Of a stretch of DNA of 64,000 bases, positions 44,472 to 64,000 are shown piece after piece (position 1 is the stretch's first letter; every line of letters starts with the position of its first letter). This stretch comes from Bacteroidota bacterium (lineage in GTDB: Bacteria; Bacteroidota; Bacteroidia; UBA8524). The stretch is from contig WGMZ01000031.1 in NCBI GenBank assembly GCA_016124735.1, positions 121,992 through 185,991 on the forward strand, in the 5' to 3' direction. A program made the translations under genes and the position numbers. The notes below the pieces were generated by a model, which did no database searches, had not been told where the DNA came from, and saw only the letters and a list, made by a program, of their open reading frames with translations.

Positions 44472-44500
44472 AACCCGGCAAACGTCGGGTTTTTTGTTTT
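44472..44500 (+). terminator. rho-independent terminator after the acyl-CoA dehydrogenase gene
   Basis: AACCCGGC-AAAC-GTCGGGTTTTTTGTTTT. A 6-bp GC stem plus T-tract, 35 nt after the stop. Confidence 0.7.
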
Positions 44501-44514
44501 TCGGGAAAACTCAG

Positions 44515-44735
44515 CGAAATATTGTCACTCAGGCCCTCCGGGCCGAGTGACCTGCGATTTCTTTGCTCCGCTTAAGAGCGCTCCGGACTTTCCGGATCGA
44601 GCGCTTCAGGTTTCCGGAAAAAATCAACAGCTTAACATTCCTGCCAAATATTGTCACTCGGCCCGGAGGACCTGAGTGACCTGCGATTTCTTTGCTCCGC
44701 TTAATAGCGCTCCGGCCTTCCGGGCCGAGCGCTCC
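44515..44735. repeat. REP-like palindromic repeat doublet (two ~120-bp units, each with two GC-rich hairpins)
   Basis: Unit 1 (44515-44640) and unit 2 (44645-44735) share ATATTGTCACTC-[GGCCC..GGGCC]-GAGTGACCTGCGATTTCTTTGCTCCGCTTAA-AGCGCTCCGG...CCGG..GAGCGCT. Hairpin A is a 12-bp stem; hairpin B is built on the AGCGCT palindrome. Confidence 0.8.
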
Positions 44736-44810
44736 CAATCCTCTGAGTATTTTGACATTCCCTGGACTTTTGGACTCGTGATGTGTTCGAATCAGCTATA
44801 AATTGTCTGT

Positions 44811-45281
44811 ATGCAAACTTTCTTTTTTACTTGTGTCGCCACCTCCAGAAAGCCCATCTTTGATCGCCAAAACCTCGATTTCATTAATGCAATCATTCAA
44901 TGTTGCGAGTACTTTTCCTTACGCCCGAGTTTCTTGCTTCACGCTTTAAGCATAATGCCTAATCATATTCATTTCTTATATTCAGAAATAGACTGTAAAA
45001 CAGATTTTAATACCCGCTTTCTTCGATTCACAACCAAACAAATACTTTCTACAAATAATCTTAGGTTAAAACATGAAAGAGTATCCTTTACATCCAATTA
45101 TAATGACAGAAAAACTCAAGTTTGGAGACCAAGAAGCAAGCTAATCCTGGTACATAATAAGCAACAATATTTTGCAGTGAAGAGGTATATCCATTCAAAT
45201 CACCTCAAGGAATTTTGGAAAGGTGCCGCTTTCAATCAAAAATTCCCCAGTCTGACTTTTTCGCCAAGATTCTGGGATTGA
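44811..45281 (+). CDS. IS200/IS605-like HuH (Y1) transposase, REP-associated tyrosine transposase (RAYT) candidate
   Basis: 156 aa. N-terminal FHxTxxTxxRKPIF-like segment, an HIH (HuH) motif in MPNHIHFLY, and a C-terminal RYIHSN resembling the IS200 catalytic Tyr motif YIxNQ. Flanked on both sides by the same palindromic repeat. The stop codon lies 1 nt from the downstream repeat. Confidence 0.65.
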   Translation: MQTFFFTCVATSRKPIFDRQNLDFINAIIQCCEYFSLRPSFLLHALSIMPNHIHFLYSEIDCKTDFNTRFLRFTTKQILSTNNLRLKHERVSFTSNYNDRKTQVWRPRSKLILVHNKQQYFAVKRYIHSNHLKEFWKGAAFNQKFPSLTFSPRFWD

Positions 45282-45495
45282 TTGTCACTCGGCCCGGAGG
45301 GCCTGAGTGACCTGCGATTTCTTTGCTCCGCTTAATAGCGCTCCGGCCTTTCCGGATCGAGCGCTTCAGGTTTCCGGAAAAAATCAACAGATTAACATTC
45401 CAGCGAAATATTGTCACTCCGCCCGGAGGGCCTGAGTGACCTGCGATTTCTTTGCTCCGCTTAATAGCGCTCCGGCCTTCCGAGCTCAGAGCTCC
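45282..45495. repeat. REP-like palindromic repeat doublet (copies 3 and 4)
   Basis: Units at 45282-45401 and 45405-45495 are about 90% identical to units 1-2 and in the same orientation. Spurious ORFs 44529..44738 and 45232..45417 lie inside these repeats. Confidence 0.8.
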
Positions 45496-45517
45496 CTACA
45501 TTTTCTGGTAATTGTCT

Positions 45518-56032: not shown

Positions 56033-56659
56033 ATGGAAGCCTTTGAAATTCGTGTCGAAGGCGCAGGGAAAAAATTCGGACGCGACTGGATTTTCAAGGC
56101 CGTGAATGCCCAATTTTCCCTTGGCGAAAAAGTAGCCATTCTTGGACATAACGGTTCGGGGAAGAGCACTTTTCTTATGTCTCTTTCTGGCTTTTATGCC
56201 CTATCAAAAGGAAATATCTGTTGGTTTCAAACTGAAAAAAATATTGAAGATTTGAATTGGTACCAGCACTATGCTCTGATCTCTCCGCTGCTTGAACTTC
56301 CGGAAGATTTTACCATCGACGAATTCCTCGATCTCCATTTTCATCTGAAAAAGATGAAAGCCGGTTGGACCAAACAAAAAATGCTGGAACGTACAGGTTT
56401 AGAAAATGCCCGGCATAAGTATCTAAAGCACTTGTCTTCTGGCATGCGTCAGCGTCTTAAACTGCTTGCTGCATTTGTGCCGGACCTACCTGTCATCTTT
56501 CTGGATGAACCCTGCACCAACCTCGACGAGCATGGTATTTCCCTGTACAAGGAACTTATCACCGAATCCAAAGACCAGTTGATTCTGGTGGCGTCGAACA
56601 TGAAAGTGGAATACGAATTCTGCGAGCGGGTGATCGAGATGGAGGCGCTTCGGGCTTAG
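56033..56659 (+). CDS. ABC transporter ATP-binding protein (orphan, no permease adjacent)
   Basis: 208 aa. Walker A GHNGSGKST, signature LSSGMRQRL, Walker B IFLDEP. Confidence 0.8.
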   Translation: MEAFEIRVEGAGKKFGRDWIFKAVNAQFSLGEKVAILGHNGSGKSTFLMSLSGFYALSKGNICWFQTEKNIEDLNWYQHYALISPLLELPEDFTIDEFLDLHFHLKKMKAGWTKQKMLERTGLENARHKYLKHLSSGMRQRLKLLAAFVPDLPVIFLDEPCTNLDEHGISLYKELITESKDQLILVASNMKVEYEFCERVIEMEALRA

Positions 56660-56675
56660 TTTGCTTTTCGAGATT

Positions 56676-57040
56676 TTTAACGCAGGACGCAAAAAGGGAA
56701 TGCTGGCGCACAACGGAGACGCGGTTGTGTTTGACACTGATTGCAAATTCTTTGAAAAAAAATGAACGCAGAGGACGCAAAATGGGAATGCTGGCGCACA
56801 ACGGAGACGCAGTTGATTTTGCTCGCTCAAATTTAGACGCGGGGACGCAAAAGGTTAAGCTTGCGCCAGACGGAGACGCGGTTTTGATTGCCGATGAATA
56901 TTTCATCCCAATAAATATTCGACGCGGAGACGCGGTTGTGCTTGACTCTGATTAATTCTTCATTGAAATAAATTTTGACGTGGGGACGCAATAATTTAAA
57001 CGCCTGCGCCTGAAGAAGACGTAGTTGTGTTAATGCGTTC
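56676..57040 (+). repeat. array of ~5 degenerate 57-86-bp repeats (family 2, forward orientation)
   Basis: Units begin at 56680, 56766, 56836, 56921 and 56978. Core: GACGC.GGGACGCAAAA...GCTGGCGCACAACGGAGACGCGGTTGTG. The array starts 17 nt after the ABC ATPase stop. Confidence 0.7.
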
Positions 57041-57119
57041 CTTGTCAAAGTATGGTCAAAACAGTGTCATATTCAATCCGATGCATTGACCATTAGTTGA
57101 AACATATGGAAATTCCAGT

Positions 57120-57518
57120 ATGAATCAGTTGGATAAAGCTAAAATTGAAAACCGAATAGCTACCAAAATTATTGAAGCAGCATTCGAGGTTTATGATCAA
57201 CTTGGGCCAGGGTTAATGGAAAGTGCCTATTCTTATTGCTTGATGTTGGAATTTAAAGAAAAAGGTTTGGCCTTTAAATCTGAACTGGCGTTACCCATTG
57301 AATATAAAAGCCACAAGCTAAACCATCATTACCGACTAGATTTTCTGGTCGAGGACAAAGTCGTAATCGAATTGAAAGCAACAGAATCGATTCATGAAGT
57401 GCATTATGCGCAACTGTTAACCTATTTGAAATTAAGTCGGCGTAAACTAGGACTATTGATCAACTTCCATTCTTCCTTCTTTAAATCAGGAATAAAACGA
57501 GTCGTCAACGGATTATAA
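57120..57518 (+). CDS. GxxExxY protein (PD-(D/E)XK-like small protein family)
   Basis: 132 aa. Family-defining G..ES.Y (MESAYSYCL) plus conserved D...E.K (DFLVEDKVVIELKA). Confidence 0.8.
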   Translation: MNQLDKAKIENRIATKIIEAAFEVYDQLGPGLMESAYSYCLMLEFKEKGLAFKSELALPIEYKSHKLNHHYRLDFLVEDKVVIELKATESIHEVHYAQLLTYLKLSRRKLGLLINFHSSFFKSGIKRVVNGL

Positions 57519-57548
57519 ATGACCCATCGAAAGAGAGAACTGCGCCTC

Positions 57549-57828
57549 CGTTGCGCGACAGCTTAATTCTCCTGCGTCTCCGTTAAAAATTCAAGCGATC
57601 ATGAATTTATCCGGGAAATAACTCTTTCTCACTATCAAAAAAACTGCGCCTCCGTCGTGCGACAGCCCAAATTATCCTGCGACTCCGCATTAACAATTCA
57701 AGCGAGCATAAATTTATCCGGGAAATAACTCTTTCTCACTATCAAAAAAACTGCGCCTCCGTCGGGCGTCAGCCTATAAACTTCTGCGACTCCGCGTCAA
57801 AAATTAGAGCGAGTAAAGAAAATGAAGC
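57549..57828 (-). repeat. array of 3 ~105-bp repeats (family 2, inverted orientation)
   Basis: Units at 57549, 57654 and 57760. The reverse complement aligns to the 56.7-kb array (…TTAAGCTGTCGCGCAACGGAGGCGCAG vs …TTAAGCTTGCGCCAGACGGAGACGCGG). R1 and R2 share an identical 40-bp tail. The array ends 2 nt before the stop of the M20 peptidase gene. Confidence 0.75.
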
Positions 57829-57830
57829 GC

Positions 57831-59012
57831 TCAGTTACCGAGCTCCCGTAACGCCAGCCAGGCCATTAATCCAGCTCCAACAGGCAAGGCGTCTTCGTCG
57901 ATATCGAAGTTAGGGGTATGCACAGAAGCAGTGATTCCTTTCGCCTCGTTTCTCACTCCGAGCCGGTAGAAGGTAGCCGGCATTTCCTGGGAGTAATAGC
58001 TGAAATCTTCGGCAGCCATCCAGATATCGAGATCTTTTACATTCTCTTCTCCGAGGTATTCCTGCGCCCATTTTTTCGCATCCTGACTCAGACGGATATC
58101 GTTTTTGAGAAATGGATAACCGTGCTCAATTTTTACTTCGCAGGCACCGCCCATGGATTCGGCGATACCACTGGCCATTTTTTCAATCTTCTGCAGGGCC
58201 TCCGCTCTCCATGTTTCATCCAGTGTGCGGAAGGTTCCTTCCAACTTCACTTCGTTGGGGATGACATTGGTCGCGCCATTGGCAATCACTTTTCCGAAAG
58301 ATAAAACAGAAGGAACAATTGGAGCGGCATTTCTGCTCACGATCTGCTGAAGTCCGGTGATGATATTCGCGGCAATCAAAACCGGATCGATATTGAATTG
58401 GGGCATGGCACCATGTCCGCCTTTGCCTTTCACCGTCATGTAGATTTCATCGCAGCTGGCCATATAGAGGCCAGAGCGGAAACCAACAGTGCCCACGGGC
58501 AACAGTGGCATCACATGCTGACCGATGATGGTATCTACGTCTTCAATGGCTCCGTCCTGAATCATAAGAGAAGCGCCTCCCGGCATTTTTTCCTCACCGG
58601 GTTGGAAGATGAGTTTCACGGTTCCGTTCCACTCCTCTTTTGTTTCGTTTAAAATTTTTGCTGCCCCTAAGAGAGAGGTTGAATGTACATCATGACCGCA
58701 AGCGTGCATCACGCCGTTGTTCTTAGAACCATAACTCCGTCCATCTACCTCCTGAATAGGGAGTGCGTCCATATCGGCGCGTAAAGCTGTTGTCTTTCCG
58801 TTCTCTTTGCCCCGGATATAGGCCACAATTCCGGTATTGGCCGCATGTTCCAATTCGGTGATGCCCATTTCCCGCAATTGCTTTTCGATAAAGCGTTGGG
58901 TTTCGTATTCCTGAAAGGATAATTCCGGGTTTTGATGAATATGATGACGAATCGCACGGATTTCCTCGTGGATTTGCGCTGCGCGTTGTTTAATTTTGTC
59001 CTTCAAGCTCAT
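57831..59012 (-). CDS. M20/M25/M40 family amidohydrolase (N-acyl-amino acid amidohydrolase type)
   Basis: 393 aa. Metal-binding MHACGHD motif and dimerisation domain. Confidence 0.8.
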   Translation of the reverse strand: MSLKDKIKQRAAQIHEEIRAIRHHIHQNPELSFQEYETQRFIEKQLREMGITELEHAANTGIVAYIRGKENGKTTALRADMDALPIQEVDGRSYGSKNNGVMHACGHDVHSTSLLGAAKILNETKEEWNGTVKLIFQPGEEKMPGGASLMIQDGAIEDVDTIIGQHVMPLLPVGTVGFRSGLYMASCDEIYMTVKGKGGHGAMPQFNIDPVLIAANIITGLQQIVSRNAAPIVPSVLSFGKVIANGATNVIPNEVKLEGTFRTLDETWRAEALQKIEKMASGIAESMGGACEVKIEHGYPFLKNDIRLSQDAKKWAQEYLGEENVKDLDIWMAAEDFSYYSQEMPATFYRLGVRNEAKGITASVHTPNFDIDEDALPVGAGLMAWLALRELGN

Positions 59013-61194: not shown

Positions 61195-61680
61195 CTACCC
61201 TTTGACAGGCACTTCGCAGTGATGCCCTTCTTCCCTTAAGGTCTTTTCAATCACTTCGCCGTCGATTAAGGCCCAATGCTCGGCAATCTTTCCATCGGCC
61301 AATCGGAACATCCTGAAACCGGGGCTTACCAGTTCCTTTTCACTGGCCGGAATTCCCCGCCACTCGCCGATATGGCGCAGGTTCATCTTTAATTTGACTA
61401 CAACTTTGTCTTCCTCACAGACCATGTCTTCGATGTGGGTTTCATGTTCGAAGGCTTTCCCTGTTGCCCGAACCCAGACTTTGAGTCCGTCGGCATCATT
61501 GCGCATGGCCGGAGGTAAGGAATGATCGATAAAATCGGGACAAACAAAGTGATCGAGACGATCGAGGTTTTGCTGATTCCATATTTCCTGAATGAAATCG
61601 GCGACGAATTGTTTTGTGTTCATTTCTTTATGATTAATGGCACAAAGGTCTTGCAGTCCATTCAGGCGGACCTGCGTCAA
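61195..61680 (-). CDS. SnoaL-like / ester cyclase (NTF2-like superfamily) protein
   Basis: 161 aa. The NTF2-like pattern is preserved. Alternative start at MNTKQF (61623). Confidence 0.55.
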   Translation of the reverse strand: MTQVRLNGLQDLCAINHKEMNTKQFVADFIQEIWNQQNLDRLDHFVCPDFIDHSLPPAMRNDADGLKVWVRATGKAFEHETHIEDMVCEEDKVVVKLKMNLRHIGEWRGIPASEKELVSPGFRMFRLADGKIAEHWALIDGEVIEKTLREEGHHCEVPVKG

Positions 61681-61691
61681 AAGTCACAAAA

Positions 61692-62261
61692 TCATTTCGC
61701 CCGGATTCGGCTCAGTGTTTCCCTGCTAATGCCCAGGTAGGAAGCCAGTTGGGTCAGTGAAACCCGTTGAAGCAAAGCCGGTTCCCTCTGTAAAAGTTTT
61801 TCATAGCGTTCTGTGGGACTCAATACCCGAAGATCAGTAGCACGCTGCTCTTGTTCGCTCAGGAGCTTCTGGAGAAATTTTCTGCCAAAGGCCTCAATCT
61901 CATGCGAACTTGAATAGGCCTGAAGTAAATCCACCTTTGGAATCCGGATGGCAATGCCTTTTTCGATGGCTATCAACGAATAGTCCGAAGGACTGCTGCG
62001 ACTCAAACTGGCAACATGGGTAAAGAAATCTCCTTCGAAGAAAAAGTCGAGATTGAATTCTTTGCCTTCTTTGTCCAGACTCGCTTTGCAACACCCTGCA
62101 TTCAGAAACCAGATATGCTCACAAACCGCCTCCTCTTTGAGCAGATAGTCGCCTTTTTGAAAAGTTAGCTCTTCACAAATCGAGGCAAGAATTTCCCAGG
62201 CTGAATCCGATAAGGGAGAGATTCCTTCGATGATTTGCCGGAGTTGATTGAAAGGAGGCAT
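61692..62261 (-). CDS. Crp/Fnr family transcriptional regulator
   Basis: 189 aa. cNMP-binding-like beta-roll and C-terminal HTH (SLTQLASYLGISRETLSRIR). Confidence 0.8.
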   Translation of the reverse strand: MPPFNQLRQIIEGISPLSDSAWEILASICEELTFQKGDYLLKEEAVCEHIWFLNAGCCKASLDKEGKEFNLDFFFEGDFFTHVASLSRSSPSDYSLIAIEKGIAIRIPKVDLLQAYSSSHEIEAFGRKFLQKLLSEQEQRATDLRVLSPTERYEKLLQREPALLQRVSLTQLASYLGISRETLSRIRAK

Positions 62262-62369
62262 TGGTGCAAAAATAGGGAAGGTGAGGTTATTGAATCGCCT
62301 CTCTTGAAAACCGTATTTTGAGCTTAGGTACGAGAAGAACTTTTAAGCAGTTATGATAAATGCATTGCT

Positions 62370-62789
62370 CTAAAAGAGCGAATCCAATTCCAAATATTTT
62401 TCTTTCATCTGACTTAAGGCAAAGGCAGCTGCAGAGGCAGCAAAGACTGAGAAATCCAAAGGTGCCTTTATCCCGGTGGAAAATGCCATCGACAATCCGA
62501 AGAGCAATAAAAGAAAGCCACTCAATCGAGCAACCCATTCTGTTTTAAAGCCAAAGATGAGGAAAATGGCCAAAAGCACTTCAGCTGCTGTCGCAAGAAT
62601 TCCTGCAATCGAAATTAAAGATTCAGGCAGCCATGGATTGATGAGTTGGGTATAGGCCAGAAAATTTTCCCAATTACCCCATACCGAAACTTCCGTGCTC
62701 CACATTCCAAACCGATCGGCTACTGCGGATAAAAATCCAGCTGATAGTGCCAGCCGCAAAAAGAGTTTGATCAGGTGTTGTGCCTTCAT
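62370..62789 (-). CDS. DoxX family membrane protein
   Basis: 139 aa. Four TM helices. DoxX-like. Confidence 0.7.
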   Translation of the reverse strand: MKAQHLIKLFLRLALSAGFLSAVADRFGMWSTEVSVWGNWENFLAYTQLINPWLPESLISIAGILATAAEVLLAIFLIFGFKTEWVARLSGFLLLLFGLSMAFSTGIKAPLDFSVFAASAAAFALSQMKEKYLELDSLF

Positions 62790-62949
62790 CTTGGTCGCTG
62801 TTAGCGTTCAAAGAAAGGTATAGTCAAAAAGAGAGACAAGGGTTTTAGGTTTATTCACTCTTTCTCCTCTCTATTTCTGTTTATTGCACTCACGTACGTC
62901 TGAATCGCGGATTATTCAGCTTACGCCGATTTGTATTCGGAAACAGATT

Positions 62950-63032
62950 CTAACTATTCGCAAATAAAACCGCGACTCCGTTTGGCGCCAGCCAAAGCAA
63001 TTGCGACTCCGCGTTAAAAAATTTGAGCGAGC
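62950..63032 (-). repeat. solo copy of the family-2 repeat
   Basis: …GCGACTCCGTTTGGCGCCAGCCAAAGCAATTGCGACTCCGCGTTAAAAAATTTGAGCGAGCAG aligns with the 57.5-kb units. Lies 5 nt after the prfC stop. Confidence 0.55.
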
Positions 63033-63037
63033 AGATA

Positions 63038-64000
63038 CTAACGAACCGCGTAAATATCCACCGCCGTATCTTCCCGGTATTCTGAGGTGAAGTGGAACTT
63101 GATATCCGGAAATGCTTCGCCGGCCATCTTGAGTGCCCAGGCAGATTCGGCAAGGAAGACGGGGTTTTCGTCTTTGTCGCGGGCGATATTGCTGCCTTTT
63201 CTGAGGATGAATTCATCCAGCTTCTTTCTGTCGTCGCAGGAAATCCAGCAGGCTTTGTAGAGGTTCATGAACATAAAATCAGCTTTGGCGCCGTATTCGT
63301 GTTCGAGACGAAACTTGATGACGTCGAACTGCAGTTCGCCCACCGTTCCAATGATTTTTCTGTTCCCTGGTTGTTGTATAAACAACTGGGCTACGCCCTC
63401 TTCAGAAAGCTGTTGCACGCCCTTGTCGAGCTGTTTGGCTTTGAACGGATCCTTGTTGATGATCTCGCGGAAAATCTCCGGAGAGAAACTTGGGATTCCT
63501 TTGAAGTGCAGGTCCTCGCCCTCGGTAAGTACGTCGCCAATCTTGAAGTTGCCGCTATCGTATAAACCGATTACATCGCCCGGGTAAGCTTCTTCCAACA
63601 AGTTCTTCTCGTTGGCCATAAAGCTGGTTGGGTTCGCAAAACGCAGCTTCTTGTTTTGGCGAACATGGTGGTAAAAGGTATTACGTTCGAACTTACCTGA
63701 GCACACCCGCATAAAAGCGATGCGATCGCGGTGGTTCGGGTCGAGGTTGGCGTGGATCTTAAAAACAAAGCCGGAGAATTTGGGCTCGTTGGCCTTGATT
63801 TCTCTTTCTACCGCTTCCCTTTCCGTTGGTGCCGGAGCAATCTCAATAAAGGTATCCAGCATTTCCTGCACCCCGAAATTGTTGATGGCCGAACCAAAGA
63901 ATACCGGAGCCAGCAATCCATCCAAATAGGTAGATGACTCAAAGGGTTCGTAGACGCCTTCAATCAGTTCCACGTTCTCGCGGAGCTCATTGGCAAAGCG
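63038..64000 (-). CDS. prfC: peptide chain release factor 3 (partial, N-terminus beyond the window)
   Basis: The C-terminal ~320 aa of RF3, including the EF-G-like domains. The reading frame stays open to the window edge. Confidence 0.88.

What the first reader, a model, noticed from the sequence alone, without database searches (positions are those of the whole stretch)
56676..57828. A GxxExxY gene sits between two inverted arrays of a degenerate ~80-105-bp repeat, and every copy lies immediately 3' of a gene stop
Five forward units (56680-57040) and three reverse units (57549-57828) flank the 132-aa GxxExxY ORF; a solo reverse unit sits at 62950-63032. The conserved core is GCTCAAATTT-AGACGCGGGGACGCAAAA-N-TTAAGCTTGCGCCAGACGGAGACGCGGTT. 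Each copy starts 2-17 nt after a stop codon: the ABC ATPase (+), the M20 peptidase (-) and prfC (-). Read along each upstream gene's transcript, the repeat is always in the same orientation. That is the behaviour of REP/BIME-like 3'-UTR elements. It could also mean the GxxExxY gene plus inverted arrays is a composite mobile cassette. GxxExxY proteins are abundant in Bacteroidota and have no established function, so any association with a dedicated repeat would be informative.
Basis: seen in the sequence. Interest (0 to 1): 0.7.

Follow-up and report, generated by a model that had tools for sequence, protein, structure and literature searches.

The report
Nuclease gene bracketed by inverted repeats
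A small nuclease gene of unknown function (GxxExxY) sits here inside inverted arrays of a GC-rich repeat, and the same gene-between-inverted-repeats layout recurs around its relatives in many bacteria, which suggests a compact, undescribed gene-plus-repeat element comparable to REP/RAYT systems.

Summary
The repeat is real. There are eight full ~75-nt copies and one truncated copy: five forward, three reverse and one solo. No other copy occurs in the 64 kb. Only the outermost copy of each array abuts a stop codon, and single units have no structure of their own.

The association with the GxxExxY gene is not local chance. The four closest homologues, each with different neighbours, are flanked the same way. 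Across 85 loci the heptamer CRCRRAG is about 25-30 times enriched, pointing inward, within 100 nt of both ORF ends. The arms begin TTAAC-CRCRRAG and often overlap the upstream gene's stop codon. The window's box A is this canonical arm.

Gene-less inverted doublets also exist: at the same site in a 92% relative, in two related MAGs, and at 39 or more places on each of two Gemmatirosa megaplasmids. The site is empty (15 nt) in 86% relatives.

The protein is an intact Cas4-like PD-(D/E)XK nuclease.

Best reading: a nuclease gene with cognate inverted repeat arms and non-autonomous doublets, analogous to RAYT/REPIN or transposon/MITE pairs. The architecture and the association are shown. Nuclease action on the arms and the mode of spread are inferred.

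The parts
56033..56659 (+). ABC transporter ATPase gene (last gene of the lpxD-lpxC/fabZ-lpxA-ABC string). Its stop codon TAG (56657-56659) is directly followed by repeat F1.
   Evidence: NCBIfam ABC ATPase hits. The synteny is conserved in relatives L118, L120 and L123.
56660..56733 (+). Repeat unit F1: box A TTTTTAACGCAGGACGCAAAAAG, then GCTGGCGC, then box B ACGGAGACGCGGTT.
   Evidence: nhmmer E 2.8e-17. Its box A aligns with the arm at the same site in L118.
56748..56821 (+). Repeat unit F2.
   Evidence: nhmmer E 3.8e-15. 80% identical to F1.
56817..56890 (+).
   Evidence: nhmmer E 1.2e-19.
56898..56946 (+). Repeat unit F4: an internally deleted copy in which the start of box A is fused to the end of box B.
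   Evidence: nhmmer E 0.0027 and the unit alignment.
56956..57030 (+). Repeat unit F5, the innermost forward copy and the most diverged.
   Evidence: nhmmer E 1.9e-15. 52-65% identical to the other copies.
57033..57119 (+). 87-nt leader between the last forward unit and the ATG. Part of it (tgtcaaagtatggtcaaaacagtgtcatatt) resembles the leaders of the two closest homologues.
   Evidence: Read by eye against the L034 and L037 leaders; no alignment score was computed.
57120..57518 (+). GxxExxY gene, 132 aa: a minimal PD-(D/E)XK nuclease with E34, D74, E84 and K86 intact.
57534..57605 (-). Repeat unit R1, the innermost reverse copy. It starts 15 nt after the GxxExxY stop. Its outer end ...CTCCTGCGTCTCCGTTAAAAA corresponds to the canonical 3' arm ...CTYYGYGGTTAA.
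   Evidence: nhmmer E 1.2e-17. Compared with the canonical arms.
57638..57712 (-). Repeat unit R2.
   Evidence: nhmmer E 3.2e-18. TRF period 107. 85% identical to R1.
57745..57820 (-). Repeat unit R3, the outermost reverse copy, about 10 nt from the M20 stop codon (57831-57833).
   Evidence: nhmmer E 3.6e-20.
57831..59012 (-). M20 amidohydrolase gene, convergent with the ABC ATPase gene. In relatives the two stop codons are 15-102 nt apart instead of 1171 nt.
   Evidence: NCBIfam TIGR01891 375.6 bits. Orthologous loci.
62961..63038 (-). Solo repeat unit S1, abutting the prfC stop codon (63038-63040). It has no convincing inverted partner: only a 9-12-nt complementary stretch about 50 nt away.
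   Evidence: nhmmer E 2.9e-18. Fold of 62895-63040 gives z -1.56, not significant. The alignment of the candidate partner is weak.

Best explanation
The locus is a lineage-specific, amplified example of a widespread cassette. The cassette is a ~125-aa GxxExxY gene (a minimal Cas4/RecB-like PD-(D/E)XK nuclease) bracketed by inverted arms.

Each canonical arm reads, from outside to inside, TTAAC-CRCRRAG followed by 1-3 more CRCRRAG heptamers at 8-9-nt spacing. In the window's lineage the arm has grown into a ~75-nt unit: box A, which is the canonical arm, plus GCTGGCGC and a second motif pair, box B. That unit has been tandemly duplicated to five copies upstream and three downstream.

The same arms without the gene form inverted doublets (long hairpins) at other sites just behind stop codons.

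I propose that the nuclease and the arms are a cognate pair. The protein, probably as a dimer, binds the heptamer clusters and cuts at the arms or at the cruciform they can extrude. Break repair or recombination then copies arms, with or without the gene, into new intergenic sites. This is the relation of RAYT to REPINs, or of an autonomous transposon or homing gene to its non-autonomous derivatives. The position right behind stop codons and the co-orientation with the upstream gene let a promoter-poor cassette be transcribed by read-through with little harm to the host.

Shown: the architecture, the specificity of the gene-repeat association, co-divergence of arm motif and protein, the existence and excess of gene-less doublets, presence/absence at the orthologous site, and an intact nuclease fold and catalytic residues.

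Inferred: that GxxExxY binds or cuts the arms, that the element moves, and how it moves.
For: 1. Closest homologues. The four nearest (71, 67, 59 and 58% identity), from four metagenomes and each with different neighbour genes, all have related units forward upstream and reverse downstream.

2. Flank repeats in 80 unselected homologue loci. 25 of 73 have flanking inverted repeats scoring 36 or more, and about 19 have strong direct flank repeats, which in the six loci inspected are copies of whole gene-less doublets. Among 115 control genes the rates are 1.7% and 0.9%.

3. Heptamer density. CRCRRAG occurs at 12.7 per kb (forward) in the 100 nt before the ATG and 15.4 per kb (reverse complement) in the 100 nt after the stop. 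Beyond 500 nt it is about 0.5 per kb, which is chance level. The arrangement 'A gene A-prime' is seen on both sides in 25 loci and on one side with the same polarity in 23; the opposite arrangement is seen in 2.

4. Specificity. 146 of 156 heptamer clusters in 322 kb lie within 400 nt of a GxxExxY ORF.

5. Arm anatomy. Arms start TTAAC-CRCRRAG with 8-9-nt spacing.

6. Position. The upstream stop codon lies a median of 14 nt before the first heptamer. In 6 of 29 loci that stop is the TAA of the arm terminus itself.

7. Co-divergence. The arm motif variant tracks protein similarity: 59.0% identity within a class against 53.4% between classes, matched by 0 of 2000 permutations.

8. Independent isolates show the canonical layout: Bacteroides finegoldii and Bernardetia sp..

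9. Gene-less doublets.
- They occupy the same site in L118, whose M20 protein is 92% identical.
- They occur in MAGs UBA8524 and LC018.
- In Gemmatirosa they occur at 39 or more places on each of two megaplasmids, against 3 or fewer GxxExxY places.

10. Empty site. The M20/ABC intergenic region is 15 nt in relatives whose M20 is 86% identical.

11. Co-orientation. The upstream neighbour is co-directional in 51 of 55 loci and in all six annotated isolates, including Sphingomonas fabD-GxxExxY-fabG.

13. Copy number here. Short-read contigs of the same organism end inside the arrays, as expected for a sequence repeated in the genome.
Against: - There is no biochemical or in vivo evidence that GxxExxY binds or cuts these arms.
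- No target-site duplication could be identified. A TTAA duplication would be indistinguishable from an extension of the inverted arm.
- Paralogues and homologues are diverged (about 50-60% identity), unlike the near-identical copies of an active insertion sequence.
- 21 of 80 classified loci have no heptamer cluster within 150 nt.
- Distant homologues (34-40% identity) have other, sometimes direct, flanking motifs or none.
- The heptamer was derived from, and then measured on, largely the same loci. Independent confirmation rests on only three canonical isolate loci.
- Within the window, array copies resemble their neighbours (80-85%) more than their mirror partners (58-69%). The arrays therefore grew by local duplication, not by repeated insertion.
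- A 125-aa nuclease with no extra DNA-binding domain would be an unusually small mobility enzyme.
Confidence: 0.5

Rival explanations
1. Arms act at the RNA level. The inverted arms pair in a read-through transcript to form a long stem that encloses the GxxExxY ORF. Gene-less doublets form a simple hairpin. This structure would serve as an RNase III processing site, an mRNA stabiliser or a terminator. GxxExxY would be an ordinary host nuclease whose expression is controlled in this way and would not act on the repeats.
For: - GxxExxY genes are almost always co-directional with the upstream gene, and arms leave little room for a promoter: the median distance from the innermost heptamer to the ORF is 32 nt, and sometimes 0-5 nt.
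- Doublets fold very stably.
- The elements sit just behind stop codons.
Against: - What is conserved across phyla is a polar heptamer motif with fixed spacing, not merely complementarity.
- Arms are only about 80% complementary. Transition mismatches show no wobble bias on the sense strand: 86 are compatible and 80 break the pair.
- There are no U-tracts or terminator-like sites beyond chance in the window's arrays.
- This reading does not explain why the arm motif tracks the protein, or why doublets outnumber genes and are dispersed.
Confidence: 0.2
2. GxxExxY is a passenger. The arms are the sites of some other enzyme acting in trans, such as a transposase or recombinase encoded elsewhere. 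GxxExxY would be cargo carried between them, as in integron cassettes or MITE-captured genes, perhaps with a defence or repair role.
For: - Gene-less doublets vastly outnumber genes in Gemmatirosa. Plasmid 2 has 39 or more doublets and no GxxExxY hit.
- The protein is very small.
- It shows weak similarity to Cas4.
Against: - In 322 kb of loci, no cluster-flanked cargo other than GxxExxY was noticed. 146 of 156 clusters are adjacent to a GxxExxY ORF. That sample is centred on GxxExxY genes, however, and ORFs next to the 10 distant clusters were not examined.
- The arm variant co-varies with the protein.
- I noticed no candidate transposase or integrase next to the cassettes in the gene lists; I made no systematic search for one.
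- The window's RAYT-like gene has its own, different REP.
Confidence: 0.2
3. Generic REP/BIME-like 3'-UTR repeats of this genome. The GxxExxY gene would merely have landed, or been retained, in a repeat-rich intergenic spacer.
For: - Copies abut stop codons in transcript orientation at three sites in the window.
- Relatives carry other hairpin-type repeats at the same kinds of site.
Against: - Only 3 intergenic sites in 64 kb carry the unit, and two of them are the flanks of the single GxxExxY gene.
- All four nearest homologues and about two thirds of 80 others show the same bracketing.
- Single units are unstructured.
Confidence: 0.07

Closest known systems
REPIN / RAYT systems (REP doublets plus the REP-associated tyrosine transposase, an HUH Y1 enzyme related to IS200/IS605 TnpA)
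   Same: - A small nuclease-type gene is flanked by the repeat that also occurs, without the gene, as inverted doublets forming long hairpins in extragenic sites.
- Doublets outnumber the gene.
- The sequences are lineage-specific, and the repeat type follows the protein.
- The location is just behind genes.
- The window itself holds a RAYT-like gene with its own REPs at 44497-45496 for direct comparison.
   Different: - The enzyme has a PD-(D/E)XK (Cas4/RecB-like) fold, not HUH/Y1.
- The elementary repeat is a cluster of tandem 8-9-nt units, not itself a palindrome.
- According to its family description (my recollection, not tested here), GxxExxY genes form paralogous families in many genomes, whereas RAYTs are typically single-copy.
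- The gene is almost always co-oriented with its neighbours.
Autonomous TIR transposon with MITE derivatives
   Same: - Terminal inverted repeats with internal tandem protein-binding-like subrepeats.
- Short gene-less versions consisting of the two arms and a short spacer.
- Presence/absence polymorphism at orthologous sites.
- Insertion inside otherwise conserved gene strings, for example fabD-fabG.
   Different: - The whole element is only about 0.5 kb.
- There is no DDE, serine or tyrosine transposase.
- No recognisable target-site duplication.
- Copies are diverged rather than near-identical.
Free-standing homing endonuclease genes, including PD-(D/E)XK homing enzymes such as I-Ssp6803I
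   Same: - A small nuclease ORF lies in the middle of a sequence (the doublet) that also exists uninterrupted elsewhere. This is the classic 'gene splits its own target' logic.
- PD-(D/E)XK homing enzymes are a precedent.
   Different: - The target would be a dispersed intergenic palindrome rather than a conserved gene or intron site.
- No cleavage data exist.
- There is no sequence relationship to characterised homing enzymes beyond the fold.
BIMEs / REP arrays of enterobacteria
   Same: - Mosaic arrays of repeats in alternating or inverted orientation directly after stop codons.
- L041 shows three tandem gene-less doublets after a stop.
   Different: - The units are not short palindromes.
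- There is no evidence for gyrase, IHF or Pol I binding.
- They are associated with a different gene family.

Membership tests
GxxExxY protein (TIGR04256 / Pfam PF13366 PDDEXK_3) | Scores above the curated cut-off of the family models. | tested here: met
   TIGR04256 144.8 bits against a cutoff of 35. PF13366 142 bits against a cutoff of 22.
GxxExxY protein (TIGR04256 / Pfam PF13366 PDDEXK_3) | PD-(D/E)XK fold with the catalytic E...D...ExK residues. | tested here: met
REP (repetitive extragenic palindrome) | The unit is a short imperfect palindrome that forms a hairpin on its own. | tested here: not met
   Four single units fold no better than shuffles (z +2.0, +1.6, -0.6, +0.5).
REP (repetitive extragenic palindrome) | Extragenic, many copies per genome. 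| tested here: inconclusive
   All 9 copies are extragenic. The genome-wide number is unknown because only 64 kb is in hand. Short-read contigs break inside the arrays. In Gemmatirosa the related doublet has 39 or more places on each of two megaplasmids.
REPIN/RAYT | Two inverted repeat copies form a long hairpin (doublet). | tested here: met
   L009 doublet -106.9 kcal/mol, z -11.8. L118 doublet z -2.4. Further doublets in L024, L030, L031 and L127.
REPIN/RAYT | The associated gene is a RAYT (HUH Y1 transposase), itself flanked by the repeat. | tested here: not met
   The flanked gene is a PD-(D/E)XK nuclease. The window's RAYT-like ORF (NF047646, E 6e-14) is flanked by a different palindrome.
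TIR transposon / MITE | Terminal inverted repeats delimit the element. | tested here: met
   Arms have a median length of 43 nt and 80% identity. They start TTAAC-CRCRRAG and abut the ORF.
TIR transposon / MITE | Target-site duplication flanks the TIRs. | tested here: inconclusive
   No direct repeat is seen outside the arms. A palindromic TTAA duplication could not be told apart from the arm terminus.
TIR transposon / MITE | Encodes, or depends on, a transposase of a known class. | tested here: not met
   The only ORF is GxxExxY. There is no transposase family hit.
Homing endonuclease gene | The nuclease ORF interrupts a sequence that exists uninterrupted elsewhere, and the enzyme cleaves the uninterrupted form. 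| not testable with these tools
   Filled and gene-less forms both exist, including at the orthologous site. Cleavage cannot be tested in silico.
Intrinsic (rho-independent) terminator | A GC-rich hairpin followed by a U-tract. | tested here: not met
   Two terminator-like sites are found in 56500-58000 against 1.8 expected, and neither lies within a repeat unit proper.
Any Rfam RNA family | A covariance-model match. | tested here: not met
   No hit at gathering threshold in the window. Only sub-threshold spurious hits at E up to 1 in the region and in 8 cassette loci.

The most novel reading that the evidence does not exclude
GxxExxY proteins number about 34,000 clusters at 50% identity and have no known function. 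On this reading they are the nucleases of an unrecognised class of very compact (~0.5 kb) mobile or homing cassettes.

The inverted heptamer-cluster arms (TTAAC-CRCRRAG x2-4) would be the enzyme's cognate sites. Gene-less arm doublets would form REPIN-like hairpin populations in Bacteroidota, Gemmatimonadota and beyond. This would be a second, non-HUH solution to the REP/RAYT lifestyle, one that inserts at or next to stop codons in the orientation of the host operon.
Probability: 0.4. Interest if true: 0.88.

Novelty: new variant of a known kind. Interest (0 to 1): 0.78.

Why it matters
GxxExxY/PF13366 is one of the larger protein families with no assigned function. The profile search found 33,814 clusters at 50% identity. 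Only three papers in the searchable library mention the name, and none addresses function.

A specific, polar and co-diverging association with a defined DNA motif gives the family a testable substrate for the first time. It suggests what the proteins do: act on their own flanking arms and on dispersed doublets.

If correct, this adds a second enzyme class to the REPIN/RAYT paradigm of long-lived intragenomic replicators. It would explain a class of intergenic hairpin repeats in Bacteroidota, including gut Bacteroides. It would also affect practical work. These repeats break short-read assemblies, as seen here. The cassettes sit inside operons such as fabD-fabG. Their arms can supply the host gene's stop codon.

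Tried and rejected
- Exact look-up of the window's GxxExxY protein found no contig. The source contig (MAG 'Bacteroidetes bacterium', protein MBI1222869.1, 200 kb) could not be retrieved, so the repeat could not be counted genome-wide in this organism.
- The strict DNA pattern scan of species-representative genomes returned mostly chance hits in high-GC genomes. Only 5 of 31 loci, all from MAGs UBA8524 and LC018, were real relatives.
- A scan of viral contigs for the protein found nothing.
- No solved structure was found by sequence.
- Rfam searches found nothing.
- PADLOC and PHROGs gave only weak Cas4-like or unannotated hits, so the gene is not a recognised defence system.
- Intrinsic terminator idea: rejected.
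- RNA-stem selection test by wobble bias: no signal.
- Nested-insertion origin of the window's two arrays, prompted by multi-tier doublets in Gemmatirosa: not supported, because neighbouring copies are more alike than mirror partners. The Gemmatirosa composites share junctions, so they may be copies of one composite element.
- A decayed inverted partner for the solo copy at 62.9 kb: not convincing.
- Target-site duplications: none recognisable.
- Literature searches by family name, Pfam id and arm sequences turned up nothing relevant.
- My first neighbour-strand tally was wrong because of an ORF-overlap threshold. It was corrected.
Full report
**1. What is in the window**

The sequence at 56.6-57.9 kb contains a degenerate repeat of about 75 nt. 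A profile built from the copies finds eight full copies at E 1e-15 to 1e-20, one internally deleted copy, and nothing else in the 64 kb.
- Forward copies: F1 56660-56733, F2 56748-56821, F3 56817-56890, F4 (deleted) 56898-56946, F5 56956-57030.
- Reverse copies: R1 57534-57605, R2 57638-57712, R3 57745-57818. TRF reports period 107.
- Solo reverse copy: S1 62961-63036.

Only the outermost copy of each array abuts a stop codon, so the title claim is overstated.

Each unit consists of three parts: box A (TTTTTAACGCGGAGNCGCARAAG), GCTGGCGC, and box B (ACGGAGNCGCGGTT). Single units are not palindromic and fold no better than shuffled sequence. There are no terminator-like sites beyond chance and no Rfam match.

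Neighbouring copies are 80-85% identical, while copies from opposite arrays average 62%. The arrays therefore grew by local tandem duplication.

Short-read contigs of the same organism (Logan SRR10063242) end inside the arrays. That is what happens when a sequence is repeated in a genome.

**2. The block is an insertion relative to close relatives**

The string dnaG / M20 / ABC ATPase / lpxA / lpxC-fabZ / lpxD is conserved in relatives. The space between the M20 and ABC stop codons differs as follows.
- Window: 1171 nt.
- L118 (M20 92% identical): 102 nt. This is a gene-less inverted doublet whose arms align with box A of F1 and R3.
- L120-L122 (86% identical): 15 nt, with no repeat.
- L123/L124 (83% identical): 94 nt, an inverted cluster of a different heptamer, GTCAACG.

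**3. The unit elsewhere**

A strict pattern scan of species-representative genomes found true relatives only in two Bacteroidota MAGs, UBA8524 and LC018. There the units occur as tail-to-tail inverted doublets with no gene between them. Each doublet starts right after a stop codon. Three of the four lie between convergent genes and one lies between co-directional genes. Such a doublet folds into a very stable hairpin (-106.9 kcal/mol, z -11.8).

**4. Association with GxxExxY**

The window has a single GxxExxY gene. Two of its three repeat sites are that gene's flanks.

The four closest homologues in the protein collection are 71, 67, 59 and 58% identical. They come from four different metagenomes and each has different neighbour genes. 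All have related units forward upstream and reverse downstream.

I then fetched 80 further homologue loci (45-59% identity), chosen by protein similarity only.
- 25 of 73 have flanking inverted repeats scoring 36 or more.
- About 19 have strong direct flank similarity. In the six loci inspected, this consists of copies of whole gene-less doublets on both sides of the gene.
- Among 115 other genes in the same loci the rates are 1.7% and 0.9%.

The arms are built from tandem heptamers of consensus CRCRRAG. The variants are CGCAAAG, CACAAAG, CGCAGAG, CACAGAG, CGCGGAG and CACGGAG.
- Over 85 loci the motif reaches 12.7 per kb (forward) in the last 100 nt before the ATG.
- It reaches 15.4 per kb (reverse complement) in the first 100 nt after the stop.
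- Beyond 500 nt and inside the gene it falls to the chance level of about 0.5 per kb.
- The inward-pointing polarity outnumbers the opposite one by 48 loci to 2.
- 146 of 156 clusters in 322 kb lie within 400 nt of a GxxExxY ORF.

Read from outside to inside, arms begin TTAAC-CRCRRAG and continue with 1-3 further heptamers at 8-9-nt spacing. The window's box A is exactly this arm.

The stop codon of the upstream gene lies a median of 14 nt before the first heptamer. In 6 of 29 cases it is the TAA of the arm terminus itself.

The arm variant follows protein similarity: 59.0% identity within a class against 53.4% between classes, matched by 0 of 2000 permutations.

Arms are about 80% complementary. 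Their transition mismatches show no wobble bias on the sense strand, 86 compatible against 80 breaking. This argues against selection for an RNA stem.

**5. Independent confirmation in cultured organisms (PLSDB)**
- Bacteroides finegoldii: radA | TTCACCACAGAGGACGCAGAGGACACGGAG ... gene ... CTCTGTGACCTCTGTGTCCTCTGTGGTGAA | FAD protein.
- Bernardetia sp.: ade | cassette | manC.
- Gemmatirosa kalamazoonensis: the gene is followed by a gene-less doublet, GAACCGCAGAGGACGCAGAGGGCCGCAGAGG...CCTCTGCGTCCTCTGCGTCCTCTGCGGTTC.

That doublet has at least 39 places on each of two megaplasmids, with the reporting limit reached. GxxExxY has at most 3 places on one megaplasmid and none on the other. In 100 kb sampled there are about a dozen doublets, some in two or three nested tiers, and one frameshifted gene.

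More distant homologues (34-40% identity) differ.
- Sphingomonas has only a 5' arm.
- Treponema has a single inverted ACACGGATTCG.
- A Fusobacteria isolate has the related motif in direct orientation.
- Prevotella has another tandem motif.
- Persicobacter has none.

The canonical arm therefore characterises a large clade, not necessarily the whole family.

**6. Gene orientation**

The upstream neighbour is co-directional in 51 of 55 loci and the downstream neighbour in 47 of 59. Divergent arrangements do not occur. All six annotated isolates are co-directional on both sides, including an insertion between fabD and fabG. The window, with convergent neighbours, is one of the rarer contexts.

**7. 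The protein**
- E34, D74, E84 and K86 are invariant in the alignment.
- The AlphaFold model is confident (pLDDT 93.8).
- No solved relative is found by sequence, and there is no defence-system assignment.
- The family is very large: 33,814 clusters at 50% identity. It includes tandem two-domain forms, which fit action as a dimer.
- Steczkiewicz et al. 2012 (PMC3424549) list PDDEXK_3 with unknown function and multiple transfers.
- No paper in the searchable library describes its function or flanks.

**8. Interpretation**

These things are shown:
- a recurrent, polar, family-linked cassette (arm - GxxExxY - inverted arm);
- gene-less arm doublets in excess of the gene;
- filled, doublet-only and empty states at one orthologous site;
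- an intact nuclease.

The most economical explanation is a cognate nuclease-and-site module that spreads or is maintained through nuclease action on the arms. This is analogous to RAYT/REPIN, to transposon/MITE pairs, or to a homing gene that splits its own palindromic target. That step is inference, and I put it at about 0.5.

The rivals are as follows.
- RNA-level stem (0.2).
- Passenger gene moved by another enzyme (0.2).
- Generic 3'-UTR repeat with a coincidental gene (0.07).

The element fails the membership tests for REP (the unit is not a palindrome), for RAYT association, for terminators and for known transposase classes. So it works like these systems without being a member of any of them.

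**9. Verdict**

The finding opens a testable hypothesis for a very large family of unknown function. Novelty: a new variant of a known kind (nuclease gene plus cognate dispersed inverted repeats). Interest: 0.78.

Noticed in passing
window 44497-45496: A 156-aa ORF (44811-45281, +) carries an HUH-like motif (PNHIHFL). Its best family hit is REP-associated tyrosine transposase (NF047646, E 6e-14, 52 bits, below the 80-bit cutoff), with a weaker hit to Pfam Y1_Tnp (E 1.4e-3). It is flanked by two 240-nt direct repeats. Each repeat carries two copies of the 28-nt palindrome GTCACTCRGNCC....GGNCYGAGTGAC, giving 4 copies against 0 expected. This looks like a classical RAYT/REP module in the same genome, with a repeat unrelated to the GxxExxY units.
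   Followed up: partly
L120:3160-3830 (relative whose M20 protein is 86% identical): Downstream of prfC there are five or more tandem copies of a ~124-nt unit. Each contains an inverted repeat (GTCAGTTCGAGCCTGTCGAGAA ... TTCTCGACAAGCTCGAAGTGAC). This is another hairpin repeat family at the site where the window has the solo unit and three small genes.
   Followed up: no
L123:7183-7276 and L123:2521-2560 (UBA8524-like relative): The convergent intergenic spacers are filled by inverted clusters of other tandem heptamers: GTCAACG/GTCGACG between M20 and ABC, and GACCATG after prfC. They have the same build as the GxxExxY arms (tandem 7-mers, inverted) but different motifs and no gene.
   Followed up: no
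L128:15490-15650, L128:28238-28404, L129:340-581 (Gemmatirosa kalamazoonensis megaplasmids): Two- and three-tier nested doublets occur, with a CAC-type doublet inside the loop of a CGC-type doublet. The junctions are shared between copies. This means either insertion into doublet centres or propagation of a composite element.
   Followed up: partly
L127:1494-1868: The Gemmatirosa GxxExxY gene next to the doublets appears frameshifted after about 46 codons. It is either a pseudogene or a sequencing error.
   Followed up: no
L131 (Sphingomonas parapaucimobilis NZ_CP155749.1): A GxxExxY gene lies between fabD and fabG, inside the conserved fatty-acid synthesis operon. It has a canonical 5' arm (CACGCGAAGGCGCGAGGACGCGAAG) touching its ATG and no 3' arm. 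Its stop codon is 2 nt before the fabG start.
   Followed up: partly
L041:about 2080-2440: Three tandem gene-less doublets (TAACCACGAAGACACGAAGAGCACAAAG...CTCTGTGAACATTGTGCCTCTGTGGTAA) directly follow a stop codon upstream of a GxxExxY gene. This is a BIME-like array of doublets.
   Followed up: no
protein representatives P0241-P0249 and others: The top-scoring family members are proteins of about 270-295 aa with two complete GxxExxY domains in tandem. They may be fused dimers or read-through of adjacent genes.
   Followed up: no
L130 (Treponema saccharophilum) and L133 (Fusobacteria bacterium ZRK30): Distant GxxExxY homologues from two other phyla share a flanking motif, ACACGGATT. It is inverted in Treponema and direct in the Fusobacteria isolate.
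   Followed up: no
window 61195-62789 compared with L120 and L123: The segment between prfC and dnaG varies among close relatives. The window has three small genes there (SnoaL-like, Crp-like, DoxX-like). L123 has a Fic gene. L120 has only tandem hairpin repeats.
   Followed up: no
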